The translations under genes and the position numbers were made by a program. DNA of 64,000 nucleotides from a virus (lineage: Duplodnaviria; Caudoviricetes), in IMG/VR virus record IMGVR_UViG_3300021400_000491, positions 1-64,000 of that record. The stretch is one strand, 5' to 3'. Every line of letters begins with the position of its first letter. Position 1 is the first letter of the stretch. A model generated the notes under the pieces. It was not told where the DNA came from. It saw nothing but the letters and a program-made list of their open reading frames with translations, and ran no database searches. Below are positions 275 through 62,225 of this stretch, piece by piece.

Positions 275-460
275 TCACACAATATCGAACAAAGTCGGCT
301 GTTTTGCGGCTTCGCGGTTCTTTCTTTCTTCAAGCAGTCTGTCTACTCTGGATTCAAGAATCTTTGACTTTTCGAGAGCTTCTTTTGAGCGTGTTTTGAA
401 ATACTCTTTTTGTGCGGCTCTCATGTCGTGTACCAAATCGGCGAATTCGCCTGTAGTCAT
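275..460 (-). CDS. Small hypothetical phage protein
   Basis: ORF 275..502, likely start ATG 460 after AGGAG; helical, ends PTLFDIV. Confidence 0.7.
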   Translation of the reverse strand: MTTGEFADLVHDMRAAQKEYFKTRSKEALEKSKILESRVDRLLEERKNREAAKQPTLFDIV

Positions 461-470
461 TTCTGCTCCT

Positions 471-556
471 AAAAAAAAAGAAGCCCGCGCAGTCCTCGAC
501 AACTACACGGGCAGTAAACGCCTTAAAAAAGCGTTCAATCATGTCGAGGGGAGATT
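471..556 (-). promoter_or_regulatory. Leader element A: hairpin plus intrinsic terminator with complementary loops
   Basis: Terminator GCCCGTGTAGT-TGTCGAGG-ACTGCGCGGGC-TTCTTTTTTTT; upstream loop contains CCTCGACA (549-542). Confidence 0.75.
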
Positions 557-584
557 CAACGCTCTTTTCTTGTTTATAAATCGA

Positions 585-669
585 ATTTACACCGATAATT
601 ATTATTTGTCAATACTAAAAACAGTAAAAGATACTATAAATTGACAGAATAACGGAATGAATGTATTAT
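585..669. promoter_or_regulatory. Divergent sigma70-like promoters
   Basis: Plus strand: TTGACA(641)-17-TATTAT(664). Minus strand: TTGACA(612)-16-TAAATT. Confidence 0.6.
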
Positions 670-23978: not shown

Positions 23979-25100
23979 TTATTTACTTCCTTTCACATGA
24001 ACATCAAGAAGCAGATAGCCCTTGTATGATGATTTTTCGTAAACAAAGCCGTTTGATTCCATTGCAGAACGGAAATCTTTCATCTGCTGCATTGTGGCTC
24101 TCATAAGTATAGGCTCTGATTCAATTCCACACTGTTTAGCGAGTGTTGCAATAGGCATTGTCACATAGAAGTCAAAGAGTTTTTCTATCGGCTGTTTTGG
24201 CTGTTCCGGCTGAACTTCTGTCACTTCGTGTGTGCTGAAATCAACATTGTATGTCGGCTGTTCCGTACTCTCTGTTGTTTCTACTGTCTGTGGCTGTTCC
24301 GGCTCGTTTGCCCTCTGCATTAAGGCTGCCTGTCTTTCGGCTTCAAGCTGGGCTTTGCGTTCTTCTTCTTCCTGCAGGCGTTTTCTGTTCTCCCGGAGTT
24401 CAGCACCACGGCGCAAGGTTGCCTGTAAATCAAGTGTGGTAAGATACAATTCTTTGAGTGTCGCGGTGTCCTCTCCGAACTGTTCAATGCTCTGTAAGTC
24501 ACCTGTGATACGGTCAATGATATGTGCAATATCATCATGAATCTGTTTTGTTTTGTATGATTTGTTAAGCCATTTTTCGTTGAAGATTTTTTCAAGCGGA
24601 ACAAGATTGAAGTCGTACACTTTCCAGATGTCGGCAATTTCGGCGCGTTTTGCTTCCTTCTCTCTTCGCTCTTCTTCCTTAACAACGCCGTCAAGCTGAA
24701 TTGTGCAGCTTTTGACAAGGTTTACTGATTCGCTTACAAGGTCTTTGAATCCGTTGAAAGGTTGCATCCATTCCTTTTCATAGGCGATACGAGCGTCATT
24801 CATCTGTTTTGCGAGTGTGTTTAATTTTGCCTTGCGGTCGGCGGCTTTTTTCGGGTTTCCGATGTATTCTTCGATTGAGAAGTTATCTGTAAGGGCTTTG
24901 ATTGAATCCCTAATAACCCTTGCGTTTGTTGTCAGAGTTCCGATTTTCATGTCGGCAACGAAATTCAATGATTCAATCGGCAAGATTGCGATTTCGTTCT
25001 TTGGCTCTTCTGCCGTAAGTTCCGGCTGAACTACAGCTTCTTTTTCCTGTTCTGTCTGATTCTCTGGAACAAGAACATTCTTTTTTGTTGTTCTAGGCAT
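23979..25100 (-). CDS. DUF1351-like coiled-coil phage protein
   Basis: Start ATG 25100 after GAGGAG; AKLN.LAK..ND.RI..EK...PF..F..VK pattern. Confidence 0.75.
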   Translation of the reverse strand: MPRTTKKNVLVPENQTEQEKEAVVQPELTAEEPKNEIAILPIESLNFVADMKIGTLTTNARVIRDSIKALTDNFSIEEYIGNPKKAADRKAKLNTLAKQMNDARIAYEKEWMQPFNGFKDLVSESVNLVKSCTIQLDGVVKEEERREKEAKRAEIADIWKVYDFNLVPLEKIFNEKWLNKSYKTKQIHDDIAHIIDRITGDLQSIEQFGEDTATLKELYLTTLDLQATLRRGAELRENRKRLQEEEERKAQLEAERQAALMQRANEPEQPQTVETTESTEQPTYNVDFSTHEVTEVQPEQPKQPIEKLFDFYVTMPIATLAKQCGIESEPILMRATMQQMKDFRSAMESNGFVYEKSSYKGYLLLDVHVKGSK

Positions 25101-25116
25101 TGTGTTTTTCTCCTCT

Positions 25117-25225
25117 AAAAAAAAGAAAGCCGTCTGTATTCTTGCCTCTACAGACGGCTTAAAATGTCGTTTGCACGACACACCGCATAAAGCGGTTTAG
25201 AAAAGGCAAGATATTTTCTAAACCG
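25117..25225 (-). promoter_or_regulatory. Leader element B: loop-complementary hairpin/terminator
   Basis: 12-bp hairpin with loop TATCTTGCC; ACCGC-TTTAT-GCGGT; TGTCGT-GCAA-ACGACA; 12-bp terminator with loop GAGGCAAGAA plus TCTTTTTTTT. Confidence 0.85.
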
Positions 25226-25236
25226 TTCTATTTTAG

Positions 25237-25294
25237 AATTGCTTTATTAAGCAACTCTAAAATAATCTTATTGCTAAATAGCGTAATTTGTCAA
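25237..25294 (-). promoter_or_regulatory. Promoter plus palindromic operator TTGCTT-N4-AAGCAA
   Basis: TTGACA(25294)-18-TAAGAT; AATTGCTTTATTAAGCAA identical to 34386-34403. Confidence 0.75.
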
Positions 25295-26403: not shown

Positions 26404-27219
26404 TTACTCGCTATCAGCGGTAAACTCGAAAGCGGGCGCAACGCCGCCATCACTATTACTTGCACCGCTGCCGCTGCTATTACCATAGTCGTTGACACGG
26501 CAAAAGTAGGAAGCGTTCGACGCATAAGGCGTACCGAGCCACCACCACCAAGTATCGTTTTCAAAAGCAAGAACTTTTATTCTGTTTTTAATTGCCTTGA
26601 AATACGGCATAAAATCCTTACTGTCCTCATTGAAAACATTGTCTTTTGAGAGCAGGGAAACATTGACTTTTCCTGTGTATTCTTTGAGGGCTTCTGCAAA
26701 GTGTTTGGCAAGGTAGACACCAAGTGGAGTTTCATCAAACGGCATGCCGGATTCTTCATAATCAACATCATGTCTGAAAAGAATATCCTCAAAGTTAAAA
26801 ACTACACGGTGTGGCTCTACATGAACCACTGTAATCACGACATTTTCAAGGTCGATTTTGTCAAATTCTTCACCTTCGCAATCTTTGACGGCTGGAACTT
26901 TGAAATGTGGTATAAGAATCTGCTGACCGGGCTTAATATTCGCATCCGCTACACCTTCATTGCAGCATTTTTTGATTGTTGAAAAAACATCAGTTGTAAA
27001 AATATCCGCAGGTGGAATAGTTTTTACTTCTGGGTGTTCAATCTTTGCAGGATTTGCCGAAGCAGGTTCTGCAATATCAATCTGATAGACATTTCCGCCA
27101 CCAAAGGCGTTTTTCTTTGTGATATTGAGAATTTCAGCTCCCAAATCCTCAATCGACTGTGCAAGTAATGCAACTTTCATATTATTTTCCTCCTTCATAT
27201 AGGATATATTTGTTTTCAA
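26404..27219 (-). CDS. DUF6273-like protein with DGR VR-like C-terminus
   Basis: Ends WWWWLGTPYASNASYFCRVNDYGNSSGSGASNSDGGVAPAF. Confidence 0.7.
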   Translation of the reverse strand: MKTNISYMKEENNMKVALLAQSIEDLGAEILNITKKNAFGGGNVYQIDIAEPASANPAKIEHPEVKTIPPADIFTTDVFSTIKKCCNEGVADANIKPGQQILIPHFKVPAVKDCEGEEFDKIDLENVVITVVHVEPHRVVFNFEDILFRHDVDYEESGMPFDETPLGVYLAKHFAEALKEYTGKVNVSLLSKDNVFNEDSKDFMPYFKAIKNRIKVLAFENDTWWWWLGTPYASNASYFCRVNDYGNSSGSGASNSDGGVAPAFEFTADSE

Positions 27220-27652
27220 TCAGTTCTTTCATGTCGTCTGCCTGCAGAATTACAGGCGTTCTACCGTAAGGAATTGAAACGAACAGGTAGAAATGATGTG
27301 TGTAGGCTGCAGCTCCTTCTTTCGTAAAAGGGGCGTGTTCCCAGACAAGATTTGTTTTCGGAAAAAATGTCTTGATAATTTTTGCTGCTTTTTTGTGGTC
27401 GAACGGCTGAATATAACTTTTGCCGTTTTTCGTAATACCGCAGAAAGTCAAAGACAGGTAATAGCAACTGTTAAGCAAGCGGTTCTTGAAGCCGGATTTA
27501 TCCAGCAAGTTGAAAGTACAGATTACTTTTTCTTCTTGAAAGATAAATGTTGAGCTGTCAGAATTCTGAATGCCGTCAGTGCAGATGTTTTTATTTGCGT
27601 GTTCAATAATCTTTCCAACTGATTTTGAATCACATTTTGGAAATGTTTTCAT
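27182..27652 (-). CDS. Hypothetical protein
   Basis: RBS GAGGTG; first gene of leftward operon. Confidence 0.65.
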   Translation of the reverse strand: MKTFPKCDSKSVGKIIEHANKNICTDGIQNSDSSTFIFQEEKVICTFNLLDKSGFKNRLLNSCYYLSLTFCGITKNGKSYIQPFDHKKAAKIIKTFFPKTNLVWEHAPFTKEGAAAYTHHFYLFVSIPYGRTPVILQADDMKELIENKYILYEGGK

Positions 27653-27666
27653 GGAAACACCTCACC

Positions 27667-27770
27667 AAAAAAGAAGGGCTTTGAAACCGTTTCGTATTCT
27701 GGCAATACTACGCGGCACAAAGCCCTAAGTCTGCATAAAGCAGTTTTGGAAAAGCCAGATAATTCCAAAA
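27667..27770 (-). promoter_or_regulatory. Leader element J2: loop-complementary hairpin/terminator
   Basis: TTTTGGA-ATTATCTGGCTTT-TCCAAAA; CTGC-TTTAT-GCAG; terminator AGGGCTTTG..GTATT-GCCAG-AATAC..CAAAGCCCT-TCTTTTTT. Confidence 0.75.
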
Positions 27771-27789
27771 ATGCCTTATCGTTTTTCTT

Positions 27790-28712: not shown

Positions 28713-28749
28713 GATTTTTTATTTTTTTTGAATTACGCTAGAGGTGGTT

Positions 28750-29991
28750 ATGAAAAAAGAAAGGCACTTGTTCAAAAGGACTGAAACAAAGAACGGTAGG
28801 AAAGAAACACGGTGGTATTATTGGTTCTATGACGAGAACGGAAAGCAAGTTAAAAAATCATGTGGTCAGCATGGGAAACCCTGTTATCTGAAAAAAGAAG
28901 CGGAAGCCTATTTAGCACTTCTGGAAGAGCAGGACAGAAGGGGAGAAGAAGAGTACAGACTAGCCCGGCAAATCCGGCTCTATGATGTCGGCTCTACTTT
29001 GTATGACGATGATTCGCTTTTTATGAAGCTGAAAGCGGCTCACGGAAAAGCATTGCAGCCGCAAACGATAACACAGAAAAAACGGCTGATGAAAATTATT
29101 CTTGCTGAATTCGGCGAGAGAATCCCGGAAACAATCGAAGAGGGCGAGATTGAGAATTTCTTGATTTCGCTTGAATATAAAAACTCTTACAAGAATACGA
29201 TTCTAGGTGTTTTGCGTGATTTGTTCGGAGAGTGTAAAAGATTACAGCTCGTAAAACATCGGCTTGATGTTGACGGCTTTATCAGAAGTGACAGACAGAA
29301 AAAAGACATTCTGACTATGGAGCAGCTTTCTTTATTGTTCCCGGACGATGTAGAAAAACTTACGGAAAATTGGAGCGTAAAGGGAACTGATAAATACATC
29401 GGTATTGACGGAAAACCTCACGCTTACGGCTTTATGTTCGGTGTAATGTTCCGGCTTATGGCAAGTACAGGATTAAGACCGGGAGAAACAAGAGCAATCT
29501 GCATAGACCAGATACAGGACGGTGGACTTTTCATAAACCGTATGATTGACAGTTACGATGTGGAGCAGCCTTACTTGAAAAAGGGAAGCATAGAGAATCC
29601 GAAGCAAAGAACTGTATTGTTACCGTCAAAAATGGCTGAATTGCTGAATGATTATCTTGAAGTAAGACCGCAATGTAAGAAAAACTACATCTTTTCAAAA
29701 GACGGCGAATTTATCTTGCAGGGGTTGCTTGATACACGATTCAAATATTGCATTAAGAAGCTGGGAATTTATGACGCTTCAAAGGTCATAACACCACACT
29801 CATTGAGATTCACATACAACACTTACACGGTGAATTCTAACCTCATTCCGGCGGAAGTTTTGCGGAAAATGATAGGTCATAACTCGCAGATTATGACGGA
29901 TTACTACACAAGACCAGACCTTGAGGCACAGTTGCAGGGCTTGCAGCCGTACCAAAAAAATGTTGATGAAATCTGGAACAAAGTAAAATAA
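28750..29991 (+). CDS. int: Tyrosine integrase
   Basis: TGLRPGETRA, TPHSLR, KMIGH, MTDYYT catalytic residues. Confidence 0.93.
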   Translation: MKKERHLFKRTETKNGRKETRWYYWFYDENGKQVKKSCGQHGKPCYLKKEAEAYLALLEEQDRRGEEEYRLARQIRLYDVGSTLYDDDSLFMKLKAAHGKALQPQTITQKKRLMKIILAEFGERIPETIEEGEIENFLISLEYKNSYKNTILGVLRDLFGECKRLQLVKHRLDVDGFIRSDRQKKDILTMEQLSLLFPDDVEKLTENWSVKGTDKYIGIDGKPHAYGFMFGVMFRLMASTGLRPGETRAICIDQIQDGGLFINRMIDSYDVEQPYLKKGSIENPKQRTVLLPSKMAELLNDYLEVRPQCKKNYIFSKDGEFILQGLLDTRFKYCIKKLGIYDASKVITPHSLRFTYNTYTVNSNLIPAEVLRKMIGHNSQIMTDYYTRPDLEAQLQGLQPYQKNVDEIWNKVK

Positions 29992-30194: not shown

Positions 30195-30300
30195 ATGGCT
30201 AGTCAAGATTTATCATGACAAAATCATGATACTATCATGCAAGATAAGAATAGATTAGATAAGATTAGACTAGAAGAGATAAGAGAAGATGAGATAAATT
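30195..30300 (+). other. Putative replication origin (iteron-like repeats plus AGAT tract)
   Basis: ATCATG x3 at 11-bp period (30212, 30223, 30234), then AGAT(A/T)/AGA repeats; reads QNHDTIMQDKNRLDKIRLEEIRED. Confidence 0.5.
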
Positions 30301-30337
30301 TAAAATACTTACCGCCGTAATTTTTTTCCGGCAAAAA

Positions 30338-30976
30338 TCAGTCGATGTGTTTCAAGACATAGTGAACTCTTCCGACAATTCCTAAACACTGTGAATCCTG
30401 TGGTTCTTCTTTGGTCGGATAAAGCGGATTGTCTGACTTGATGATGAACTTCCCGGAATCTTTATAAACTCGTTTTACATAACCGTCACCGTCACGCATT
30501 ATTGCGTAAAGCCCTTCGCCGCTATAACCGCATGAATCGCAAAGCACCAAGTCACCGCGCCTTAAAGTGGGTTCCATGCTGTCACCGTCCACATAAAGCA
30601 AAGCTAAGTTTTCGCCGAATTGTTTTAAGTATCGCGGCACTTCCATGTAGCCGATTACTTGCGGCTCTTCCTGTAGGTACTGACCGTACCCGGCTGAAAG
30701 TTTTTGATTAAGTACAGGCACAAAGAATTTATCTGTGTCGGAATTTCTGACAACTCGCCTTTCGTTTTCTTCCAGACCGTCAATCAAAAAATCAAAAGAT
30801 ACACCGAAGATTTCAGATAGTTTTTTCAGTTCCGCAATGTTTGGCAGGCTGTTTCTCTGAATTTTGATTTCAAGATTACGCGCTCCATAGCCCAATTTTT
30901 CAGACAATTCTCTTTGAGTGATACCGTTGCTTTTGCAGAGATTTTGTATTCTTTCCCAGAATGAAGTTATTTCCAT
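30338..30976 (-). CDS. cI: CI-like repressor (XRE HTH plus S24 peptidase)
   Basis: ITQRELSEKLG HTH; LSAGYG, VDGDSMEP, YVKR autocleavage motifs. Confidence 0.92.
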   Translation of the reverse strand: MEITSFWERIQNLCKSNGITQRELSEKLGYGARNLEIKIQRNSLPNIAELKKLSEIFGVSFDFLIDGLEENERRVVRNSDTDKFFVPVLNQKLSAGYGQYLQEEPQVIGYMEVPRYLKQFGENLALLYVDGDSMEPTLRRGDLVLCDSCGYSGEGLYAIMRDGDGYVKRVYKDSGKFIIKSDNPLYPTKEEPQDSQCLGIVGRVHYVLKHID

Positions 30977-31130
30977 GCTCAAATTTTCGGCAGAAAACAT
31001 CAAAAAAAGCACTGTTTTTTAAGAAATGTTGTGAAAAAGCACAAAATGGTGTAAAAACTTATTGACTTTAAAATCAAACAGGTGTAAAAACAGAATCAAG
31101 ACAACATCAAAACGATGTAACGACAGAGCC

Positions 31131-31221
31131 ATTAACATTACAGCGCGTTGTTAATTGCTTTGGCAATTTGGGGAAACCCGGAAAGCCTGTTGGTTTGCGC
31201 TGAAACTGACAGGCTTTTTTT
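31131..31221 (+). promoter_or_regulatory. Leader element C: loop-complementary hairpin/terminator
   Basis: ATTAACA-TTACAGCGCGT-TGTTAAT; AATTGC-TTTG-GCAATT; GGG-GAAA-CCC; 15-bp terminator with loop GCGCTG plus T7. Confidence 0.85.
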
Positions 31222-31241
31222 GTTGCAGGGGGATTGAAGGT

Positions 31242-31454
31242 ATGACAGACGCTAGAAAAGATGCGGTGTTGGCACTGACCGAGCAGATTTTGCGTGAAGC
31301 TGATGACGAGTTTAAGGGCATGGCTATTCATAAGGTCGGGGATATGTACGACAGCGTAGATATTTTCAAGGGCGTGGGCAAGATAAATGTCCGTATTGCC
31401 GGAGATAGCCCTCTTGCAATCTTCAAGGATATAGCAAGGGCGATACCTTGTTAA
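31242..31454 (+). CDS. Hypothetical protein, first gene right of cI
   Basis: ATG 31242 after GGGGG/GAAGG. Confidence 0.65.
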   Translation: MTDARKDAVLALTEQILREADDEFKGMAIHKVGDMYDSVDIFKGVGKINVRIAGDSPLAIFKDIARAIPC

Positions 31455-31461
31455 AAATATG

Positions 31462-31558
31462 GCGCGTGTAAGCCGCTAAAGGTTAAGCGGTGTATGTTCT
31501 TTTTTCAAAAGTTTTTCCGAAAGTAAATAACTTGCAGGTTCAAATCCTGTCACGCGCA
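31462..31558 (+). tRNA. Degenerate tRNA-like element (possible TTC anticodon; irregular D and anticodon arms)
   Basis: Acceptor GCGCGTG/CACGCGC plus A; T-arm GCAGG-TTCAAAT-CCTGT; D-like CCGCT-AAAGGTTA-AGCGG; no encoded CCA. Confidence 0.4.
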
Positions 31559-31826
31559 AGAGGAGTTGCTGGAAACAGGGCGCAAAGAGTACGCAGAGGG
31601 TGTGAGTAGAGTATGCGAAGGGTATGCGAAAAGAATAACAAAGGGGCTGTAGAGTTGCTCAAAGGCTACAGTGAGTATGTTATCCCGGACAAGCGAGGAA
31701 AAAATCTAATCCTTGCCACGCGCTCGCAGCGGAGTTTTCGGTGTAGGTAGTGTTTTGTCTGTTCAAGAGATGTAGAGTGCCAGACCGCAGCAATGCGTTA
31801 ATTGCAAAAAAAACAGGAGAAGAAGA

Positions 31827-32627
31827 ATGACCAACGAGAACATTTTAGAGAACTTGAAAAAACTGTATCAGTGCAAGACCGAATTCACGGTAACGCAGAC
31901 AGGAAAGCAGAGCAAAAAAGTAAACGGATTTTATAAGCCGCTGACACATGAAATATTCTTGCATAACAAAAACTTCAAATCCGACAACGCCTTAATGTTC
32001 ACGGCGATTCACGAGCTTACGCACCATATCCAGAATGAAAACGGCGTGAAAGCCGCAAGAGCGCACAACAACGCTTTTTGGAGTACATTCTACAACCTTC
32101 TTGATGAAGCTGAAAGAATCGGCATTTATTCACGCGAACGAAGCGAAAGCGTAGCGGCAAAAGCAAAAGAACTTACAGACATTCAAAAACAGATTATCGA
32201 ATTGCAGAAAAAACAGGGAAAACTTCTTGCCGAACTTCACAGGGAATGTGAAGAGCAAGGCGACAGATACGAAGATGTGCTTGAACATGATTTGCAGATT
32301 TCCAGAAACAAGGCAAAAGAATTACAGAAACAGGCTTATTTGACATCTGATGTTTCTGATGAAATGTCAAAGGCAATCAATTCAGCAAAAGACGCAATGA
32401 TGAAAAACGCAGCAATACAGGCGGCTGACAGCGGGGCAACCGTTGAGCAGGTAAAGGCGATTGCAAAAGACACGGCGAAAAAAACTAAGCCTGCAGACGA
32501 TGGACTTGATTCACCTTCAAGCCTTATGCGCGAAAAGAAGCGTATTGAAAAAACAATCGAGCAGTTACAAGACAGACTTGTAAACATTGACGAACAGCTT
32601 ATAAGCATGGGGGTAGATGATGATTGA
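31827..32627 (+). CDS. Zincin (SprT-like) metallopeptidase-domain protein with coiled coil
   Basis: AIHELTHH and AH...F motifs. Confidence 0.65.
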   Translation: MTNENILENLKKLYQCKTEFTVTQTGKQSKKVNGFYKPLTHEIFLHNKNFKSDNALMFTAIHELTHHIQNENGVKAARAHNNAFWSTFYNLLDEAERIGIYSRERSESVAAKAKELTDIQKQIIELQKKQGKLLAELHRECEEQGDRYEDVLEHDLQISRNKAKELQKQAYLTSDVSDEMSKAINSAKDAMMKNAAIQAADSGATVEQVKAIAKDTAKKTKPADDGLDSPSSLMREKKRIEKTIEQLQDRLVNIDEQLISMGVDDD

Positions 32628-32853
32628 CGGTAACGAAATCAAGCTGAATACCACCCAGCAGAGAGTTTTTAATTACATCATGGATTTTGGGTCAATCACG
32701 ACACTTGAAGCGTGTGTGGATTTAGGCGAAACAAGGCTTTCAGCACGGATTTTTGAGCTGAAAAGCAAGGGTGTGAATATTTCAAGTGATTGGATTGAAG
32801 TCCAGAACAGGTACAAGGAAAAACGCCATGTAAAGCGATATTACATCGGCTAA
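32617..32853 (+). CDS. Winged HTH protein (HTH_39-like)
   Basis: GSITTLEA..LG.TRLSARIFELKSKG..I. Confidence 0.8.
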   Translation: MMIDGNEIKLNTTQQRVFNYIMDFGSITTLEACVDLGETRLSARIFELKSKGVNISSDWIEVQNRYKEKRHVKRYYIG

Positions 32854-32877
32854 AAATAAACAAAAAGGAGTTCTGAA

Positions 32878-33795
32878 ATGGAATTGTTCGGAAAAGAAAT
32901 CAAGAAGAAGCACATTATCACATCAATCGTGATTTTGCTTGCTCTTGTAGTAGGTATCAACTCATGCTCAACCGTAAAACAGCGTGAGCGCGGAGTTGAA
33001 TATGTTTTCGGTAAAGTAAAAGGCGATGTTATCAAGCCGGGCTTGAAATTCCATGCGCCATTTATCGCAAATGTAACAAAGTATTCAATCGCGCCAAAAA
33101 CTTTTGAAGCTACTTTTGCAGTCGGAAATGACGGAGCAATTACCCGCGATATGCAGACGGTCGGAACGACTGTAAATGTCAAATATGCTTATGACGAATC
33201 GCGCATTATGGATATTGCCACAAGATACGGCGATAGTGTGATTGAATCTGCAATGAAATCAAATATTATCGCAAGCGTTAAGGAAGTCGTAGGCTGCTAT
33301 TCGATTTATGAACTTGTAGAAAAACAGCCGGAAGTTACAAGCCGTGTTTCTGAATCCATTTTAGCAAGAATGGTCGATTATCCTATCACAATTTCACAGA
33401 CAACTATCACAAATTGGGATTGGTCAGATGATTTTGACCGCCAGATTAAAGAAACGGCAAATCGTACACAGCAGGTAAAACAGGCGGAGCAGGAAGCAAA
33501 TATTGCCGCCGCAAACGCGCAGAAACTTGTCAAAGAAGCCGAAGCAAAAAAACAGGCTATTCAGCTTGAAGCAGAAGCCGCATTGATTAAGGCACAGAAT
33601 GAAGCCAAAGCAAAACAGGCTGAGGCTGACGGTATCGCATATTATAACGCAAAAATTGCACAGAACATGACTATTCAACAGCAGCAATGGAAACATGAGG
33701 AACAAATGGCATATTACGACAAGTGGAACGGAATCCTTGTATCGCAGTACATACCTCTTACGGCTGCAGGCGGAATTGTCAATCTCTCTAAATAA
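32878..33795 (+). CDS. SPFH/Band7/prohibitin-family protein
   Basis: N-terminal TM; ERGVEYVFGKV..PGLKFHAPF; DDF...I; C-terminal KWNG. Confidence 0.9.
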   Translation: MELFGKEIKKKHIITSIVILLALVVGINSCSTVKQRERGVEYVFGKVKGDVIKPGLKFHAPFIANVTKYSIAPKTFEATFAVGNDGAITRDMQTVGTTVNVKYAYDESRIMDIATRYGDSVIESAMKSNIIASVKEVVGCYSIYELVEKQPEVTSRVSESILARMVDYPITISQTTITNWDWSDDFDRQIKETANRTQQVKQAEQEANIAAANAQKLVKEAEAKKQAIQLEAEAALIKAQNEAKAKQAEADGIAYYNAKIAQNMTIQQQQWKHEEQMAYYDKWNGILVSQYIPLTAAGGIVNLSK

Positions 33796-33822
33796 CTATC
33801 GGGCAAAAAGTGAGGTGGGAAA

Positions 33823-33966
33823 ATGGGAAGGAGAATCTATGTAGAACAGTACACACCGAAGATGTACACAATGCACAAAAACGGCGTACAGACTAGGCGC
33901 ATTAGCTTTATCCGTTACCTGTTTTTGAAGCTTTGCGGTAGCAAGGATATAAAAGTCCTTCGCTAA
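33823..33966 (+). CDS. Small hypothetical protein (47 aa)
   Basis: RBS GAGGTG; below ORF-track cutoff. Confidence 0.4.
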   Translation: MGRRIYVEQYTPKMYTMHKNGVQTRRISFIRYLFLKLCGSKDIKVLR

Positions 33967-34304
33967 AAATCCTGCTGCTTTTCAGATTGCTTTTTGAACA
34001 AGTCAATCTGGAATTGCAGCGAGGACATGAGGAATGATTTTTGATTTTCATTCAGCGTGTCTAGTTCTGCAAAAAGAAGCCGTATTTCTTGCGGAAAATC
34101 ACATTTCTCTTGACCTGTAATCAGAAAATCAAGGGAAACTTTGAAATGCTTTGCGATTGCTACTAAATCCGGGAGAGCCGGGAAGCGTTTAGCCTGTTGG
34201 CTGGAATAGTAAGACGATTGCACGATTCCGTTTTTTTCAAGCATTTCTTTCAGCGAGATACCTTCTTTTTTGCAGAGTTCTTTAATCCGTTCGTAAATAT
34301 CCAT
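33963..34304 (-). CDS. XRE-family HTH repressor
   Basis: MDIYERIKELCKKEGISLKEM..PDLVAIAKHFKVSLDFLITG. Confidence 0.88.
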   Translation of the reverse strand: MDIYERIKELCKKEGISLKEMLEKNGIVQSSYYSSQQAKRFPALPDLVAIAKHFKVSLDFLITGQEKCDFPQEIRLLFAELDTLNENQKSFLMSSLQFQIDLFKKQSEKQQDF

Positions 34305-34347
34305 GCTTTTATGTTCGGAATAATTGCTTAAAAACATAATTATTATC

Positions 34348-34403
34348 TTGACAGATTACGCGAAAAAGCAATAATATAAAAGTGTAATTGCTTTATTAAG
34401 CAA
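34348..34403 (+). promoter_or_regulatory. Promoter plus palindromic operator
   Basis: TTGACA(34348)-18-TAATAT; AATTGCTTTATTAAGCAA 34386-34403. Confidence 0.75.
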
Positions 34404-34414
34404 TTTTATAACAG

Positions 34415-34523
34415 AGCAATGGAAAAAGAACCGTGACCTTTTTTGATTGCTTTGGCAGTCACTCCCGAAAGGGGAATGAAAGCCGTAGGTTTTTGTCACG
34501 GAAAGCCTGCGGCTTTTCTTTTT
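34415..34523 (+). promoter_or_regulatory. Leader element D: loop-complementary hairpin/terminator
   Basis: AAAAAG-AACCGTGAC-CTTTTT; GATTGC-TTTG-GCAGTC; CCC-GAAA-GGG; 15-bp terminator with loop TGTCACGG plus TCTTTTT. Confidence 0.85.
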
Positions 34524-34537
34524 GGGGGATAAAGAAA

Positions 34538-35155
34538 ATGAATGAGATTGCTACAGAAAAAACAGTTACAACAAAAGAATTGGCTGAAATGTTGGGTGTA
34601 GATGTAGATACAGTAAACAATACCGTAAACCGATTAGGCTTTTCCGATGTACTTCGGAAAAGTACAGGTGGTAGACCTACAAGAGTTTTCAACGAAAAGC
34701 AAGCAACACTCATTAAACAAGCAATTCAAAGGCATCACAATCTTGCGACAAGACAAATTGATAATATTTCTACAGACCTAGAGGGTGAATTGCTTGTACA
34801 GAAAGCAATGGCTTATCAACAAATGAAAATAAATCAGCTACAGGCAAAAGTAAAAGAAATGCAACCTAAAGCCATTATTTATGATGAATTTGTAAGTCGT
34901 GATAGATTCTGCAATTTCCGGGACGGTGCTAATTATCTCCACATTTCACAATCTGACTTAATGAATCTTCTGAAAACTCGCTACATCTACAAAAATAATG
35001 TAGGTGAATATCGCTGCTATGGTGAATACTCGCAGTATTTCACTTTAAGACCATTTACTTTGGGCGACAAAACAAAACAGCAACTAATGTTCACGATTAA
35101 GGGTTTAGAGTTCTTCAAAAATAAAATCAATTCAACAAAAAGGGTGGAAGCATGA
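34538..35155 (+). CDS. Antirepressor (HTH plus KilA-C/ANT domain)
   Basis: TTKELAEMLGV; EMQPKAIIYDEFV..NFRDGANYL..T.KG. Confidence 0.8.
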   Translation: MNEIATEKTVTTKELAEMLGVDVDTVNNTVNRLGFSDVLRKSTGGRPTRVFNEKQATLIKQAIQRHHNLATRQIDNISTDLEGELLVQKAMAYQQMKINQLQAKVKEMQPKAIIYDEFVSRDRFCNFRDGANYLHISQSDLMNLLKTRYIYKNNVGEYRCYGEYSQYFTLRPFTLGDKTKQQLMFTIKGLEFFKNKINSTKRVEA

Positions 35156-35502
35156 CCTTACAGATTGATGATGAAGGGGAACTTGGAAAACTTCTTCAAC
35201 TTCTCCCGGAAGCGATAAACACATTCAAACAGGCTGCAAGCGTACAAAACAATCAGCTTACGGCGCAATGGTACGACTTGGAAGCCTGTTACAACTTGCG
35301 CGGCGTGGGTGCTTTTTCGACCTTCAAAAATAACAGGTGGTATCAGCCGAAGGGCGGAATCCCGGACGGCATCGTACAGGGGCGGCACGCTTGGAGCAGG
35401 GAAACGGTGGCGGAATGGCTGACTTATACGGACAAAACGCTTCCAGAATACCACAAGAAATATTGCACAGGTGCAAGGAATCCGAAGGGGGCGCAGAAAT
35501 GA
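35152..35502 (+). CDS. Hypothetical DNA-binding protein (excisionase-like candidate)
   Basis: Ends RHAWSRETVAEWL, resembling AlpA/Xis winged helix. Confidence 0.45.
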   Translation: MTLQIDDEGELGKLLQLLPEAINTFKQAASVQNNQLTAQWYDLEACYNLRGVGAFSTFKNNRWYQPKGGIPDGIVQGRHAWSRETVAEWLTYTDKTLPEYHKKYCTGARNPKGAQK

Positions 35503-35696
35503 TGTTGAAATGCACTACAACGAAGTTTAACGGTAAGGATATAAAACTTTACGAATCTTCCTACAAGGGCAAAAAGCAGACCTTCGGAAGCGTGAGAGAA
35601 GCACTTTTATACAGCATGGGTTACGGTTCTGACCAAGCGGCAGAATTGCGCTACATGATGAAAAAAAAGATAGACGAGAAATCCAACGAAGCATAA
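35499..35696 (+). CDS. Hypothetical protein
   Basis: ATGA coupling to upstream gene. Confidence 0.6.
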   Translation: MMLKCTTTKFNGKDIKLYESSYKGKKQTFGSVREALLYSMGYGSDQAAELRYMMKKKIDEKSNEA

Positions 35697-35707
35697 GGAG
35701 GCAAAAA

Positions 35708-36760
35708 ATGCTTTATGAAGAAATCTTGAAAAACGGATTCTGTACGGCTGAAAGTACGGAAGGTATGAGCGAAGATGTGTGGCTTGATAAACGCCGTGAG
35801 GGTATCGGCGGCAGTGATTCCGGGGCAATCCTTAACATGAATCGCTTTGCTACACCGTTGAGCGTTTACATCGCAAAGAAAAACCTTCTTGATTCTGATT
35901 TGAATAAAAACAATCAGTCTATCAAGTGGGGAAAAATGGCGGAAGCTGCAATCAGAAAAGGGCTTGCAGACGATTTGAATTTGCAGATTGAAACCGCTCC
36001 TGTAATGTTCAAGAGCGTTAAAAATCCGTTCATGCTTGCTGATTTGGACGGCGTGATTTTTGTGCCGGAAGCAAGAGAAATCAACGGAAAGACCGTTAAG
36101 GGAATCGGCGGGCTTGAAATCAAAACCGCAACTTCACGCAATACGGAATTTGGAAGTGATGAAATTCCAGACAGCTATTATTGCCAAGTCCAGCATTACA
36201 TGGCTGTAACCGGGCTTGATTGGTTCGTTCTTTGTGTGCTTATTGACAAGGCAGACGGCAGAATCTACACAGTGCCTAGAAATGACGACTTTATCAACAA
36301 CACTCTTATTCCGGCTGAAAAATCATTCTGGAATGACTATGTACTTGCAGAAGTAATGCCAGCTCCAACAGGCAATGAATACGAATCAAAGATTGTTGAC
36401 GGCGTTTATAAAGAGTGTGCCGCCGAGGTTGAACTTCCCGAAGAGGTTTCTTTGCTCTGTGATGAATACAATCTTGCAGCACAGGAAGAAAAAGCCGCCG
36501 GAGAGAAAAAAGAAATCATCAAGGAAAAAATCAAGATTGCCATTATGAAAGCCTCGCCGACCGCTGATGTCGAGAAGCAGAAAATCATCGCAAAGGCGGG
36601 CGGTGCAAAAATATCTTGGAACAAGCAGGTTCGCAAGATTGCCGACACAGACAAGCTCAAAAAATCCGGGCTTTTTGATGAATATTGCAAGGAATCAGCA
36701 AGCCTTGTAATGAGAATCACGGCAGAGAAAAAAGCAGCGGGGGCGGCTGATGTATTCTGA
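35708..36760 (+). CDS. YqaJ-like (lambda exonuclease family) recombination nuclease
   Basis: WL..RR.GIGGSD, ADLDG, LEIKT, YYCQVQHYMAVTG. Confidence 0.93.
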   Translation: MLYEEILKNGFCTAESTEGMSEDVWLDKRREGIGGSDSGAILNMNRFATPLSVYIAKKNLLDSDLNKNNQSIKWGKMAEAAIRKGLADDLNLQIETAPVMFKSVKNPFMLADLDGVIFVPEAREINGKTVKGIGGLEIKTATSRNTEFGSDEIPDSYYCQVQHYMAVTGLDWFVLCVLIDKADGRIYTVPRNDDFINNTLIPAEKSFWNDYVLAEVMPAPTGNEYESKIVDGVYKECAAEVELPEEVSLLCDEYNLAAQEEKAAGEKKEIIKEKIKIAIMKASPTADVEKQKIIAKAGGAKISWNKQVRKIADTDKLKKSGLFDEYCKESASLVMRITAEKKAAGAADVF

Positions 36761-36947
36761 TGATGAAGATTTGAGAGTGGATAGGTGCTGTTGTGGCGGA
36801 AATCCGCAGGTAGAAAGTAAGTACGGCTCTTTCTTTGTCATTTGTAAAGAGTGTGGTTGCTCTGGTTCTTCATATCCAACACAGAAACAGGCAATCCGCT
36901 CTTGGAACAAGAAAAACAGACGAATTAAGGGGGAATCTGAAAAATGA
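36750..36947 (+). CDS. Lar-family restriction alleviation-like protein
   Basis: CCCGGNP..FVICKECG....AIRSWN. Confidence 0.7.
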   Translation: MYSDDEDLRVDRCCCGGNPQVESKYGSFFVICKECGCSGSSYPTQKQAIRSWNKKNRRIKGESEK

Positions 36948-56500: not shown

Positions 56501-57424
56501 ACAATACAGGTAGAAGGTCGTATCTGGCGACAGAATAACAAACAGGGAATTACTCATATCGTTTATCCGCTTATGAATGATTCCATTGACGCTATGATGT
56601 ACCAGAAGTATGACGAAAAATCTAGCCGCCTTAACGCATTGTGGAGCTATAAGGGCGATTCTCTCAATGTTGAGGACATCAACCCGGAAGAGCTGAAATT
56701 TGAGCTTATCAAAGACCCGAAAAAGCGTGCAAGTATGAAAATCTTGCAGGAGCAGGCAGACTTGAAGAAGCAGCAGAAAATGACGGATGCGCTTTATGAT
56801 ACCATTGCCGAACAAATGAGCCAAAGAAAGAATCTGATAGGTAATACAGAGTATCAGACAAAGCAGATTCCAGAGTATGAAAAATCTGTTGCGAATTATA
56901 CTAACCTCGTGGAAGAAACAGAAAAGAAACTGAAAGCCGCAAAGAAAGCGAAAGAAGATACTTGGAAAATTGAGCGGGATTTGGAGAACTACAAATATTC
57001 TGTAAACTCTTACAAGTCGCAGCTTCGATTGGCAAACAAAGCCATTAAAGAAAATGGCGAATTGATTGCAGCCATTGAAAACTCTTGGAGAAAACAGGGA
57101 GTAGATAACCCGGAAAACATCGAGGAAAAACTTTCTGAAATCTCTGCAAGACGACACGAAATTTCAAACAAGCTCGGAGAAATTGAAGGTAAGTTTGATT
57201 TTTATGTGGCAGAAGCAAAGAAGCAAATTGAGGATGCACAGAGAAAACAGAAGCATTATTCTGTAGCTGACCGCGTAGATTACTATGCAAAGGAAATCGG
57301 AAACGACTTGAAGCCTTTTGAAGAAATCAAAGACCAGATTAAGGCAGACATGGAAAAGAAGCGTAACGGTGGAATTGCAAAAGCGATTATCTATAACGGT
57401 CGCCTGCTGATTCAAAGAGCATAA
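50570..57424 (+). CDS. Giant polyvalent DarB-like protein (DUF2958-like, adenine MTase, SNF2 helicase)
   Basis: LEPSSGIGRF, GNPPY; DVGVGKT, DELHNFKN, QVEGRIWRQ; ATG 50570 after AAGGAG. Confidence 0.9.
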   Translation: MLIINKEKFAEILKSALGSQKGDHDYIYRVPIAEKHSGKSVRRYKYLYAWEQIKKPFEKLAEFFGINEKQVDEMYAKENIQKDFNADKKTFAQHLVEYFSHRKQWDDRFAPKENQQKFNKPVKMATFKENADVLSKDMETPAPENDEPSLFSDKELKKLGAKDKGEWKANPYLMRRIWGMFTGKTIQQQEKQEQAAEKKVADESAKKEEQKKLIAEFAEKHNLDPKKVEAGMKQAFKELDNIGKKTEKKPTKAQLLKDVIKPQLFDLGIIPHSQIEATNTEQIDNVQALLETIATMPKMYEGDHTARLHYFVGGMDYYITELGDDGVGYGYVDNNGDPMTSEWGYVDLKELASAGDMKGLNIDYFFTPKLVGDLIKESGHRELAEEYEDTYGEEEAEMKEKVEDKKPAAPKKVDWYEAFAGSWNTFYPTGTGMKPYINISRKGARGEKIGESKRANSKTDLSGLFDGVNDFVFNTEYIGEKSRQNFIERLADLGFHAQKEYTDEKGNTKYMLMIRDGSKAGLVEMIPNSDYKKKEYTVITHDEAGNETDKQVFSDIDSAQAFMDKQRKALEAGESEAEKHENRSNAMLGNQNAKKFGMPEDVYEIMRNMVSEQVNGQGIKNRQILFEKLYKKDDYFRKKLDMYGGTSNEEITGYKRSDIFNALYDDVTGGEHGEDNSGIGRNGLSAGTSDLRSGTGEGNGNSDVSETESAIDGNEFVQQPRESGIGLGERSSDNGRNGAGSGRVTKATAKQIRAKCLELLATKKDSEMTAEDKALLAQYEGGGGLNEGGQSTKAVLTEFYTPRDVISKVWELVDKYNPNQKKKVLEPSSGIGRFAEGRNEDFTLCELDETSARIAGILHPDSEVKQGAFQKLFMQNNAVTGYKGELYDVAIGNPPYGAYNDLYKGMGEGKHHTRYEEYFIDRSLDTLKDGGILAFVVPSSFLRGKNGKGKEAIAKKGKLLEAWRLPKGTFSSTDVGTDIIVIQKGKGDIADYCDNKYFADNESHVIGHETEGKDRFGKPTKIVNLPEGKTVAEAISMIDTKAVEVKEIAKNVEVKTVQADLSKRFTVIGKLQVGAELTRPDGAKGKITYITDGGMIGYEFDSKTNPGGRTSLEDFTVLDDKETAEEISRKRSEAMKGNDNAKKAFHKQIVKKATKGDVFTPSIGKNMTAQEFNAKYSKDIPEADMKFWKVTDWEGKVDVTKLTDEEREELGKNKNFVTDENGNFVNVANYASGNIVEKLAKLEAEKDRISKESYEEKKAILEAVLPARKNIMQFTISPKENFALQFKDEDGISLKDKFLAYCGFNENGRIGWNSHCPIPKSELADGMTMQDIWDYVNQIPVRTERTRNPEDAETAKMFAEQKKNARRETTERLFNKWLRELPERQQNAIEDEWNARFNSRVNPDYKKIPLFVDGMNTHKGKKKFDMTEQQIKGVSMLCNKGNGILAYDVGVGKTVTGIVATVNQIQTGKAKRPIICVPKSVYKKWIKEIKQHFPNQTINELGNFSEKDLGRFKDSDGKVNLPEGALNVCTYEALQKVTFKEETLNGDLRDDMLDSQSVYDYDEYGNLVEDTRSEREKAQAEEKLMKMLGIAAEAKPGAVYWEDLGIDHITVDELHNFKNVFSIPRTFGKSVRSTNEKKTDYWGRKIKADDDPGQLSNEYSGMQGATSGRAMKLFAISQLIQRETNGRGFFGLSATPFNNSPVEIYNILSMVARNRLKDLEIYNLQDFMKQFAEMKPDWKVQANGDVVSAQVMKNFKNLNALQNLITEFIDKVDGEEAGVVRPYKRVHKPELDLTPLQKAIIKAETDRMDGKFSKPGDDNKNSADALIAMNNMRMATLSPCLIDPKFWADYEDYEGWHKPQMKDIVKESPKLQFVCDMTSTQYKARPSEGQVIYMPRGVEQYHYVKDYLVSKGVPADAIAFMDSSTSLADKERIKDDFNDVDGKIKIIIGSETIKEGVSLNGNSTTLYNTMLGWNPTETIQVEGRIWRQNNKQGITHIVYPLMNDSIDAMMYQKYDEKSSRLNALWSYKGDSLNVEDINPEELKFELIKDPKKRASMKILQEQADLKKQQKMTDALYDTIAEQMSQRKNLIGNTEYQTKQIPEYEKSVANYTNLVEETEKKLKAAKKAKEDTWKIERDLENYKYSVNSYKSQLRLANKAIKENGELIAAIENSWRKQGVDNPENIEEKLSEISARRHEISNKLGEIEGKFDFYVAEAKKQIEDAQRKQKHYSVADRVDYYAKEIGNDLKPFEEIKDQIKADMEKKRNGGIAKAIIYNGRLLIQRA

Positions 57425-57542
57425 TTGCAAAAACGGCTGTTATGCCTTATAATGCAATTAAAATATTTATTCTTGGTAGTTATGCAGAAGCAAACGCCGA
57501 TTATTCCATGATTCAATTCTTGGGATAGTCGGCGTTTTTTTT
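57425..57542 (+). terminator. Promoter followed by long intrinsic terminator in a leader
   Basis: TTGCAA(57425)-17-TATAAT; 17-bp stem 57492-57537 plus T tract. Confidence 0.7.
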
Positions 57543-57557
57543 GTTCCGGGGGATTAT

Positions 57558-62187: not shown

Positions 62188-62225
62188 ATTGCCTTGCGGT
62201 CAGAAGCACTAGGAGCAGGGCAAAA

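What the first reader, a model, noticed from the sequence alone, without database searches (positions are those of the whole stretch)
31131..31221. Family of leader RNAs whose terminator loop pairs with an upstream hairpin loop (type copy C, cI-divergent promoter)
At least five promoter-proximal leaders share one architecture: hairpin P1, a small GC-TTT(G/AT)-GC hairpin, often a GNRA hairpin, then a long intrinsic terminator ending just before the first RBS. In every copy the P1 loop is complementary to the terminator loop, yet the sequences all differ: CAGCGC/GCGCTG (C), CCGTGAC/GTCACGG (D), TCTTGCC/GGCAAGA (B), CCTCGACA/TGTCGAGG (A), TCTGGC/GCCAGA (J2). C and D also covary in the GAAA stem (GGG/CCC vs CCC/GGG). 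This covariation points to a selected kissing-loop or pseudoknot. Inference: an antitermination switch controlling early operons, functionally comparable to HK022 put RNA, lambda nut, or P4 CI/P1 C4 control. I do not recognise it as a named family.
Basis: partly seen in the sequence, partly recalled or inferred. Interest (0 to 1): 0.9.

Follow-up and report, generated by a model that had tools for sequence, protein, structure and literature searches.

The report
Kissing-loop terminator leader RNA family
Five early operons of this Treponema phage begin with a folded leader RNA in which the tip of a first hairpin base-pairs with the tip of the transcription-stop hairpin; related phages keep this pairing through matched mutations, so it is a real, uncatalogued RNA control element, though what it does is untested.

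Summary
The window is part of an 83-kb temperate phage of rumen and gut Treponema. Five leaders (A, B, C, D, J2) share one plan: sigma-70 promoter, 5' hairpin P0, long hairpin P1, optional GNRA hairpin P2, and a strong intrinsic terminator T just before the ribosome site.

In each copy, 6-8 nt of the P1 loop are complementary to the T loop. Cognate runs are 6-8 nt and non-cognate runs are at most 4.

Relatives supply at least 16 different loop pairs, all complementary. In 12 orthologous leaders the 8-bp loop-loop helix is paired in every cell, and 5 of 8 pairs change on both sides. A model of P1 alone found new members in Treponemataceae genomes. The 14 that have a terminator behind them each carry a matching terminator loop.

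The small "GC-TTTG-GC" hairpin (P1b) is real but mutually exclusive with the base of P1, so the leader is a two-state switch. Rfam has no match.

Function is inferred, not shown. My best guess is a gate on read-through, possibly with trans competition by terminated leaders.

This scan has already noted analogous, non-homologous leaders in other phages.

The parts
31062..31090 (+). Promoter of leader C (TTGACT, 17-nt spacer, TAAAAA), divergent from the S24/HTH cI-like repressor gene 30338-31012(-)
   Evidence: Read directly. Repressor family.
31104..31118 (+). P0, a 5'-proximal hairpin of leader C (ACATC / GATGT). A P0 hairpin of differing sequence is present in all family members.
   Evidence: P0 covariation, including G-U pairs, in E-type leaders: helix 1.
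31124..31162 (+). P1 of leader C. Lower stem CAGAGC/GCUUUG, a 1x1 mismatch, a 7-bp upper stem, and an 11-nt loop at 31138-31148. The 'address' CAGCGC is at 31141-31146.
   Evidence: P1 is 90% paired, with covariation 0.609 against 0.225 in shuffles, across 17 leaders.
31153..31168 (+). P1b, the alternative hairpin AAUUGC-UUUG-GCAAUU. It reuses the 3' strand of P1 and is mutually exclusive with lower P1.
   Evidence: Across 17 leaders, 86% of cells are paired and 4 of 6 pairs change on both sides.
31170..31179 (+). P2, the GNRA hairpin GGG-GAAA-CCC. It is optional in the family.
   Evidence: Stem covariation and GAAA/GCAA loops in relatives.
31182..31221 (+). Intrinsic terminator T of leader C: a 14-16 bp stem, loop GCGCUG at 31197-31202 (the 'anti-address'), and a U7 tract
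   Evidence: -18.8 kcal/mol.
31228..31454 (+). RBS GGGGGA and the first gene of operon C, a 70-aa ORF with no family. A 266-aa HExxH protein follows at 31827-32627.
34348..34537 (+). Leader D. Promoter at 34348-34377; operator-like palindrome / P0 at 34388-34403; P1 at about 34412-34454 with CCGTGAC at 34431-34437; GNRA hairpin; terminator 34478-34517 with GTCACGG at 34495-34501. It precedes the KilAC antirepressor gene 34538-35155 and the recombination/replication operon.
25101..25294 (-). Leader B. Promoter at 25294-25265; palindrome at 25254-25239; 12-bp upper P1 with loop UAUCUUGCC; GCAA hairpin; terminator with loop GAGGCAAGAA. It precedes the DUF1351 gene 23979-25100.
27653..27782 (-). 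Leader J2. P1 with UCUGGC in the loop, P1b CUGC-UUUAU-GCAG, and a long interrupted terminator with GCCAGA in its apical loop. It precedes a 156-aa gene at 27182-27652. It lies downstream of promoter 27909-27880 and a first terminator, J1, at 27831-27800.
461..610 (-). Leader A. Promoter TTGACA, 17-nt spacer, TAAATT. P1 with CCUCGACA in the loop (+ strand 542-549), P1b AACGC/GCGUU, and terminator 512-483 with UGUCGAGG in the loop (+ strand 494-501). It has no GNRA hairpin. It precedes a 61-aa gene.
   Evidence: R2 hit at 519-569, E = 2.7e-4.

Best explanation
SHOWN. The stretch is one member (copy C) of an uncatalogued family of promoter-proximal leader RNAs, about 110-140 nt long, in temperate phages and prophages of rumen and gut Treponema. 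The RNA runs from a strong sigma-70 promoter through P0, P1, optionally P2 (GNRA), and a strong intrinsic terminator T that ends 5-25 nt before the first ribosome site. Two features are under selection. One is a 6-9 bp Watson-Crick helix between the P1 loop and the T loop, whose sequence differs from leader to leader like an address. The other is a pair of mutually exclusive foldings of the P1 base: lower P1 (RGAGC with GCUUK) or hairpin P1b (NNGC-UUNN-GCNN).

INFERRED. The leader is a transcription attenuator that sets how many polymerases pass T into the early operons: the cI-divergent operon, the antirepressor/replication operon, the DUF1351/methylase operon and two more.

The mechanism I commit to is this. 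As the T loop emerges it pairs in cis with the P1 loop. The linker between P1 and T is too short for full P1, the loop helix and full T to coexist, so the base of T cannot close in time and the polymerase reads through. This is a steric 'tug-of-war' type of antitermination. Opening the P1 base through P1b relieves the strain and lets T terminate. Terminated leaders carry the same two loops. As they accumulate they compete in trans for the loops of nascent leaders with the same address and restore termination. That would give address-specific negative feedback or immunity.
For: Anatomy and stability.

Selection on the loop-loop helix:
- G001's D leader is about 92% identical to the window's, yet CCGTGAC/GTCACGG has become CCGCAAC/GTTGCGG. 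G004 has CTACGAC/GTCGTAG.
- The C-type orthologue L031 has CCGTACA/TGTACGG.
- Among 12 E-type leaders the 8-bp helix is paired in 100% of cells, and 5 of 8 pairs change on both sides.
- Model R2 holds only P1 and P1b. It hit 13 of 151 Treponemataceae genomes. Each of the 14 leaders that have a hairpin and U-run behind them again has a complementary terminator loop, with new addresses.

Two-state base.

Addresses are orthogonal within the phage.

Attenuator role:
- T is a strong hairpin plus U tract directly before the RBS.
- In relatives a single leader precedes the whole early operon of about 16 kb.
- The C-type and E-type leaders are positional orthologues.

Steric strain: a straight P1-K-T rod is about 100-120 A long, whereas the linker spans at most about 60-95 A with P2 folded (rough estimate).

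Precedent: structures placed just upstream of terminators suppress termination (bioRxiv 10.64898/2026.06.17.733018).

Trans component: the three ant-leader alleles differ at 4-6 of 14 address positions, against 12-24 of about 148 other positions (p = 0.036, 0.024, 0.0028). This resembles the P1/P7 c4 heteroimmunity alleles, which I recall from my own knowledge.
Against: No experiment and no usable transcript-end data are available; the RNA runs held only low-depth contigs.

The pairing covers loops only, so T can still fold. A kissing helix could just as well stabilise T.

The geometric argument is a back-of-envelope estimate that ignores bending of kissing complexes.

Address positions are not generally hypervariable. 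GCGUACUU is kept in leaders whose stems differ at 7-18 of about 61 positions. That fits a purely structural cis contact.

The promoters of C and D carry repressor or operator features, so a resident prophage may make little leader RNA.

T stems of -19 to -24 kcal/mol are the kind that upstream structures affected least in the tug-of-war study.
Confidence: 0.35

Rival explanations
1. Terminator lock with a protein-dependent release. The cis loop-loop contact stabilises or speeds folding of T, or stabilises the terminated RNA, so the default is tight termination. A phage or host protein then binds the conserved P1 base / P1b motif and the GNRA hairpin, as N binds nut or as in Q-type systems, and loads onto the polymerase to read through.
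For: The sequence at the P1 base is conserved (RGAGC...CCGCUUU). A GNRA hairpin like boxB is present in most copies. Other promoter-leader-terminator units in the late region of the same phage suggest a general antitermination factor. T can fold with its loop paired, so stabilisation is physically simple.
Against: Pfam and PHROGs found no N-, Q-, RfaH/LoaP- or AlpA-like protein among the early genes. The GNRA hairpin is absent from A, J2, L039 and L049. A strong terminator of -19 to -24 kcal/mol needs no reinforcement. The model does not explain why addresses are orthogonal or why ant-leader alleles turn over.
Confidence: 0.25
2. Purely trans-acting riboregulator. The terminated leader is the functional product, a small RNA of about 130 nt. 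Cis kissing is sterically disfavoured. Docking would enforce termination, block the adjacent ribosome site or recruit RNase III. This would be an RNA immunity or timing device like P1/P7 C4 or P4 CI.
For: Strong promoters and strong terminators predict abundant short RNAs. The geometry disfavours a closed cis complex. Addresses are orthogonal. Changes are in excess at the address positions of the antirepressor leader. Copy D controls an Ant gene, as c4 does in P1.
Against: The local concentration favours the cis partner, which lies 60-70 nt away. Address sequences are often conserved across divergent phages. Leaders C and D have repressible promoters. There is no evidence of processing, and no transcript data.
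Confidence: 0.2
3. No RNA-level function. The complementarity would be chance, a by-product of inverted duplication of a terminator hairpin, or a DNA-level inverted repeat such as a protein binding site.
For: P1 resembles a terminator hairpin: an A-rich 5' side and a GCUUU 3' side. The false positives of model R2 are plain terminators.
Against: The P1 and T stems are unrelated in sequence, so an inverted copy is excluded. At least 16 different loop pairs are all complementary, with compensatory changes. The chance probability per leader is 0.0003-0.009. A DNA-binding protein could not read 16 different sequences. G-U pairs in the stems point to RNA.
Confidence: 0.02

Closest known systems
P1/P7 c4 antisense RNA (immI: c4-icd-ant) and P4 CI RNA (seqB with seqA/seqC)
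   Same: In both, a leader-borne RNA hairpin loop is complementary to other sites in the same early or immunity transcript. It controls an antirepressor or early operon through premature termination. Closely related phages differ by matched changes in loop and target, as in heteroimmunity. Here the ant leader has three alleles.
   Different: There is no match to Rfam C4 or any other Rfam family. There is no sign of a tRNA-like fold processed by RNase P. Here the partner of the loop is the loop of the intrinsic terminator itself. Five orthogonal copies exist in one genome. Trans action is not shown.
Zipper-type attenuator cATT of pLS20 conjugation operons (PMC13401043)
   Same: Both are leaders of an early operon of a mobile element in which an upstream hairpin is complementary to the terminator region across intervening hairpin(s). 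Both have two conformations of similar energy. Both have a conserved upstream stem suspected of binding a factor.
   Different: In pLS20 the upstream 3' stem pairs with the terminator's 5' stem and loop, so antiterminator and terminator exclude each other. Here only 6-9 loop bases pair and neither terminator strand is sequestered.
'Tug-of-war' antitermination by structures just upstream of intrinsic terminators (bioRxiv 10.64898/2026.06.17.733018)
   Same: There is no sequence overlap between the sensor and the terminator. A stable hairpin (P2 or P1b) lies 0-4 nt upstream of T. Steric or energetic competition is a plausible mechanism.
   Different: Those elements are ligand-bound aptamers or pseudoknots without any contact to the terminator loop. 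The effect was small on strong terminators. No ligand is known here.
IncI-alpha / IncB repZ control: an activator pseudoknot competed by Inc antisense RNA (own knowledge, not checked in a paper)
   Same: A hairpin loop pairs in cis with a distal complementary sequence to activate expression. A small RNA carrying the same sequence as the distal partner competes in trans.
   Different: That system acts on translation and has a separate antisense gene. Here the competitor would be the terminated leader itself and the target step would be termination.
HK022 put RNA (PMC9378689), lambda N/nut, and lambdoid PR'-6S RNA-tR'/Q
   Same: All are phage early or late operons gated by promoter-proximal terminators that a nascent RNA element or a factor overcomes. 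The GNRA hairpin resembles boxB.
   Different: put has two stem-loops that bind the polymerase, acts processively and does not touch a terminator loop. nut needs boxA, boxB and N. Q needs a DNA site and a pause. No N or Q homologue was found, and the GNRA hairpin is dispensable.

Membership tests
Intrinsic (Rho-independent) terminator / 5' leader attenuator (general class) | G+C-rich hairpin directly followed by a U tract, located between a promoter and the first gene | tested here: met
   T of A, B, C, D and J2 has 11-17 bp, -18.6 to -23.6 kcal/mol and 6-9 U. Promoters lie 100-150 nt upstream and the ATG 15-30 nt downstream.
Intrinsic (Rho-independent) terminator / 5' leader attenuator (general class) | Alternative, mutually exclusive RNA structures that decide whether the terminator forms | tested here: inconclusive
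   Two exclusive foldings exist at the P1 base, but neither overlaps the terminator strands.
Rfam C4 antisense RNA (P1/P7 c4, P4 CI type) | Match to the family covariance model | tested here: not met
   cmscan found 0 matches in the window at gathering score and none on the leaders at E <= 1.
Rfam C4 antisense RNA (P1/P7 c4, P4 CI type) | Loop(s) complementary to target sites in the same operon transcript; controls ant or early genes | tested here: met
   The P1 loop is complementary to the T loop in every copy. Copy D precedes a KilAC antirepressor.
Rfam C4 antisense RNA (P1/P7 c4, P4 CI type) | Processed out of the leader (RNase P) and acting in trans | not testable with these tools
   Only low-depth assembled RNA contigs were available.
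Zipper-type attenuator (pLS20 cATT, PMC13401043) | The upstream stem strand is complementary to the terminator's 5' stem and loop, so the long-range helix excludes the terminator | tested here: not met
   Complementarity stops at the loop borders in C, D, B and the E-type. A nested long-range helix appears only when the 3' strand of T is withheld.
Lambda-type nut site (boxA + boxB + N) | boxB hairpin with a GNRA-like loop in every site, boxA consensus, and an N-like arginine-rich protein | tested here: not met
   The GNRA hairpin is present in B, C, D, L031 and most E-type leaders but absent in A, J2, L039 and L049. No boxA consensus was seen. No N-like family turned up.
HK022 put RNA | Two-stem-loop RNA that binds RNA polymerase and acts processively, independent of any particular terminator | tested here: not met
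   The architecture differs: the selected contact is to the leader's own terminator loop. No Rfam match was found. Processivity is not testable here.
Tug-of-war antitermination | Stable structure within a few nt upstream of the terminator, without sequence overlap | tested here: met
   P2 or P1b ends 0-4 nt before T in all copies. The functional consequence is not tested.

The most novel reading that the evidence does not exclude
An RNA-only, address-coded gate. Each early operon of the phage is controlled by a leader that recognises itself. The cis loop-loop contact lets polymerase pass its own terminator. This would give operon-specific timing and an RNA layer of superinfection immunity whose specificity evolves by paired loop changes. 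Analogous leaders noted by this scan in Bacteroidota and other phages would make this a general, so far undescribed mode of phage transcription control.
Probability: 0.2. Interest if true: 0.9.

Novelty: new variant of a known kind. Interest (0 to 1): 0.78.

Why it matters
Phage early transcription is the textbook case of regulated termination (N, Q, put, C4/CI). I found no published system in which the loop of the terminator hairpin is itself the selected pairing partner of an upstream hairpin.

The family offers a compact element of about 100 nt with at least 16 natural orthogonal 'addresses'. That makes its mechanism directly testable with compensatory mutants. If it gates termination, it would be attractive as a set of orthogonal RNA parts.

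It is also the first structured regulatory RNA I know of for phages of Treponema, a host group whose phages are almost unstudied. It may also explain similar leaders that this scan keeps finding in unrelated phages.

Tried and rejected
- BLASTN of 30300-36800 against GenBank phages found no match.
- The cI-anchored search in IMG/VR gave only two near-identical phages and one unrelated locus, L003, which has no leader.
- Rfam gave nothing on the leaders at gathering score or at E <= 1. A weak Phe_leader hit lies on the integrase terminator.
It was replaced by R2.
- MAFFT could not align the terminator halves of the different leader types. Covariation of T and of the kissing helix was therefore counted on E-type orthologues only.
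- Public RNA runs held only Logan contigs of low depth. They gave no transcript ends and no statement about termination or read-through.
- I looked for extension of the loop complementarity into the stems, as in a classical or zipper antiterminator. There is none in C, D, B or the E-type.
- I looked for an antisense promoter inside leaders C and D. None was in the scan.
- I looked for diversifying selection on the address in E-type leaders. It was not seen, and the address is often more conserved than the stems.
- I looked for an antiterminator protein among the early genes with Pfam and PHROGs. None was recognised.
- I asked whether the 61-aa product behind leader A is a Rop-like protein that binds kissing complexes. 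AlphaFold gives a helical hairpin, but Foldseek and phmmer against the PDB give only generic helical hairpins. No conclusion is possible.
- A sequence look-up in the scan's earlier findings found no look-alike.

Full report
**What the window is.** The window is the first 64 kb of a single 83,270-bp IMG/VR virus record that CheckV rates 100% complete. It encodes an integrase (28744-29991) and an S24/HTH cI-like repressor (30338-31012, minus strand). It also encodes a KilAC antirepressor, RecE/RecT-type recombination genes, replication genes and structural genes. Relatives of its DUF1351 protein lie mostly in prophages of rumen and gut Treponema MAGs. It is therefore a temperate Treponema phage.

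**Checking the observation.**
- Promoter: TTGACT, 17-nt spacer, TAAAAA.
- P0: a small 5' hairpin.
- P1: 31124-31162, with CAGCGC in an 11-nt loop.
- Small hairpin: AATTGC-TTTG-GCAATT.
- P2: GGG-GAAA-CCC.
- Terminator T: a 14-16 bp stem with the 6-nt loop GCGCTG and seven U.
- Then the RBS and the ATG at 31242.

Copies A (minus, about 610-461), B (minus, about 25294-25101), D (plus, 34348-34537) and J2 (minus, 27782-27653) have the quoted loop pairs. All five fold far better than shuffled sequence, with z from -4.6 to -6.3.

Within the window the longest Watson-Crick run between a P1 loop and its own terminator loop is 6-8 nt. For all 20 non-cognate combinations it is at most 4. Two random 11-nt loops reach 6, 7 or 8 nt with probability 0.009, 0.002 and 0.0003.

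**A correction to the anatomy.** RNAfold shows that the conserved GCUUU is the 3' strand of a lower P1 stem, which pairs with a conserved upstream RGAGC. The 'small GC-UUUR-GC hairpin', here called P1b, reuses those same bases. I tested both foldings on an alignment of 17 leaders of all types.
- P1: 90% of cells paired, covariation score 0.609 against 0.225 in shuffles, 8 of 14 pairs changed on both sides.
- P1b: 86% of cells paired, 4 of 6 pairs changed on both sides.

The leader therefore has two mutually exclusive, selected conformations.

**Relatives and covariation of the loop-loop helix.** Four lines of evidence support the pairing.

- *Near-identical phages.* G001 and G002 carry the same leaders, with telling differences. 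G001's D leader has CCGCAAC/GTTGCGG where the window has CCGTGAC/GTCACGG. A third allele, in Treponema genome G004, has CTACGAC/GTCGTAG.
- *A C-type orthologue.* L031 has the same 70-aa first gene and carries CCGTACA/TGTACGG with a GCC-GCAA-GGC P2.
- *More distant Treponema prophages.* They carry one such leader ('E-type') in front of their whole early operon of about 16 kb. Its first gene, a 264-aa HExxH protein, is 59% identical to window gene 31827-32627. E-type and C-type leaders are therefore positional orthologues. Their loop pairs are GCGUACUU/AAGUACGC, GCACGUUU/AAACGUGC, GCACACUU/AAGUGUGC, GCGUCCUU/AAGGACGC and GGUGUCGU/ACGACACC. On an alignment of 12 E-type leaders the 8-bp loop-loop helix is paired in 100% of cells. 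Five of its 8 pairs change on both sides. Sliding the partner by one column drops pairing over the whole structure from 90% to 42-49%.
- *An unbiased test.* Model R2 contains only P1 and P1b, not the loop sequence or the terminator. It hit 13 of 151 sampled Treponemataceae genomes. Each of the 14 leaders that have a hairpin and U-run downstream again has a terminator loop complementary to its P1 loop. For four of them (L082-L084 and G004's copy of C) I read the pairing off the printed sequence, because the script's terminator filter missed them. New pairs include UGCGUCG/CGACGCA, GCGAUC(C)UUU/AAAGAUCGC and GCGUCAAC/GUUGACGC. The remaining hits were plain terminators.

In a blind scan of all terminator loops against loops of upstream hairpins, complementary runs of at least 7 nt occurred 20 and 18 times. 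The same-sense control gave 2 and 3. Altogether at least 16 different 'addresses' keep the pairing.

**What it is not.**
- Rfam 15 has no match at gathering score in the window and none at E <= 1 on six loci carrying leaders.
- The complementarity stops at the loop borders, so neither terminator strand is sequestered. That separates the element from classical attenuators and from the pLS20 zipper-type attenuator, in which the upstream stem pairs with the terminator's 5' stem and loop (PMC13401043).
- The GNRA hairpin is missing in A, J2, L039 and L049, and no N-, Q- or NusG-like protein was recognised. It is therefore not a nut site.
- P1 and T have unrelated stems, so an inverted duplication cannot explain the complementary loops.

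**How it may work (inference).** T has every hallmark of an efficient intrinsic terminator and sits directly before the ribosome site. In relatives a single leader stands in front of all early genes. Control of read-through is therefore the natural function. Three observations constrain the mechanism.

- *A selected two-state switch at the P1 base.* When the 3' strand of T is withheld, as it is before it has been transcribed, the minimum-energy fold in several members (C, L039, L063, L049) opens P1 and forms P1b. It then pairs the address with the T-loop sequence as an ordinary long-range helix.
- *A steric limit.* A rough estimate gives a straight P1-kissing helix-T stack a length of about 100-120 A. 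The linker with P2 folded can span at most about 60-95 A. Full P1, the loop helix and full T may therefore not coexist in cis. Something has to give: the base of T, the base of P1, or P2.
- *A published precedent.* A recent preprint shows that stable structures placed within a few nucleotides upstream of an intrinsic terminator suppress termination without any sequence overlap. The effect was weaker on strong terminators (bioRxiv 10.64898/2026.06.17.733018).

My preferred model follows from these. The cis loop contact prevents timely closure of the terminator base and gives read-through. P1b relieves the strain and gives termination.

A trans component is suggested by three things. The addresses are orthogonal within the genome. 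Strong promoters and terminators are expected to produce abundant terminated leaders. And changes are in excess at address positions among the three alleles of the antirepressor leader: 4-6 of 14 against 12-24 of about 148, with p = 0.036, 0.024 and 0.0028. This recalls P1/P7 c4 heteroimmunity.

One observation argues against general diversifying selection. The E-type address GCGUACUU is conserved in leaders whose stems have diverged. The direction of the effect, and cis versus trans action, therefore remain open. I give the specific model 0.35, a terminator lock released by a protein 0.25, a purely trans riboregulator 0.2, and no RNA-level function 0.02. The remainder is left for mechanisms I have not thought of.

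**Comparison with what is known, and novelty.**
- In function the element is closest to leader-borne loop/target systems of phage immunity regions (P1/P7 C4, P4 CI).
- In logic it is closest to the IncI/IncB activator pseudoknot with a trans competitor.
- In context it is closest to the pLS20 zipper attenuator.

It is a member of none of these. The kind, a 5' leader attenuator of a mobile element, is known. The variant, in which a terminator loop is the selected, address-coded partner of an upstream hairpin loop and is combined with a P1/P1b switch, is not described in Rfam or in the papers I could find.

This scan has already flagged analogous leaders with a kissing-loop terminator in Bacteroidota, Flavobacterium and other phages. 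Those are unchecked AI notes and are not sequence look-alikes of this family. If they hold, the principle is widespread.

**Limits.** No transcript-end data could be obtained. All mechanistic statements beyond structure and selection are inference.

Noticed in passing
window 27909-27783 (-): Leader J has two terminators in tandem. A first unit, J1, has a hairpin and terminator at 27831-27800 with no loop-loop complementarity. It is flanked by an 8-nt complementarity, TTATCGTT...AACGATAA. The 3' half of that complementarity overlaps the 5' strand of J2's lower P1, which may add a further alternative pairing.
   Followed up: partly
window 57340-57560 and 61990-62215; genome 71230-71470 (+): The late region has further units of sigma-70 promoter, short leader and strong terminator (T at 57493, 62139, 71388). 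The last two share ATTCCTTAnnAAAGGCAG at the terminator base. None shows the P1-loop/T-loop complementarity, so they are a different leader type.
   Followed up: partly
window 25239-25254 and 34388-34403: The same 16-bp palindrome, TTGCTT-N4-AAGCAA, sits at about +1 to +20 of promoters B and D. It is probably an operator for one repressor, with the divergent HTH gene 33963-34337 as a candidate. It doubles as the P0 hairpin of these leaders.
   Followed up: no
window 31455-31826: A stretch of about 370 nt without a convincing ORF lies between the 70-aa gene and the 266-aa HExxH gene. It contains a small terminator-like hairpin at 31472-31491 and repeated GTATGCGAA motifs. E-type prophages lack this insert.
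   Followed up: no
window 278-460 (-): The only product behind leader A before the window edge is a 61-aa protein (phrog_15937, function unknown). It is predicted as a two-helix hairpin (pLDDT 85). The size and fold class are reminiscent of Rop/Rom, which binds kissing complexes, but no specific structural match was found.
   Followed up: partly
L078, L089, L094, L095 (Treponemataceae genomes): P1 itself looks like a weakened intrinsic terminator, with an A-rich 5' side and a GCUUU 3' side. The false positives of the P1 model are ordinary terminators of the form AAAAAAAGCGGUUUAGA...UCUAAACCGCUUUUUUU. P1 may derive from a terminator or act as a pause hairpin.
   Followed up: no
L057, L058, L065 (genome contigs): Some contigs carrying this phage group are binned as Lachnospiraceae or Clostridia MAGs, while most are Treponema. 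This is probably mis-binning of phage contigs, so the host assignment rests on the majority only.
   Followed up: no
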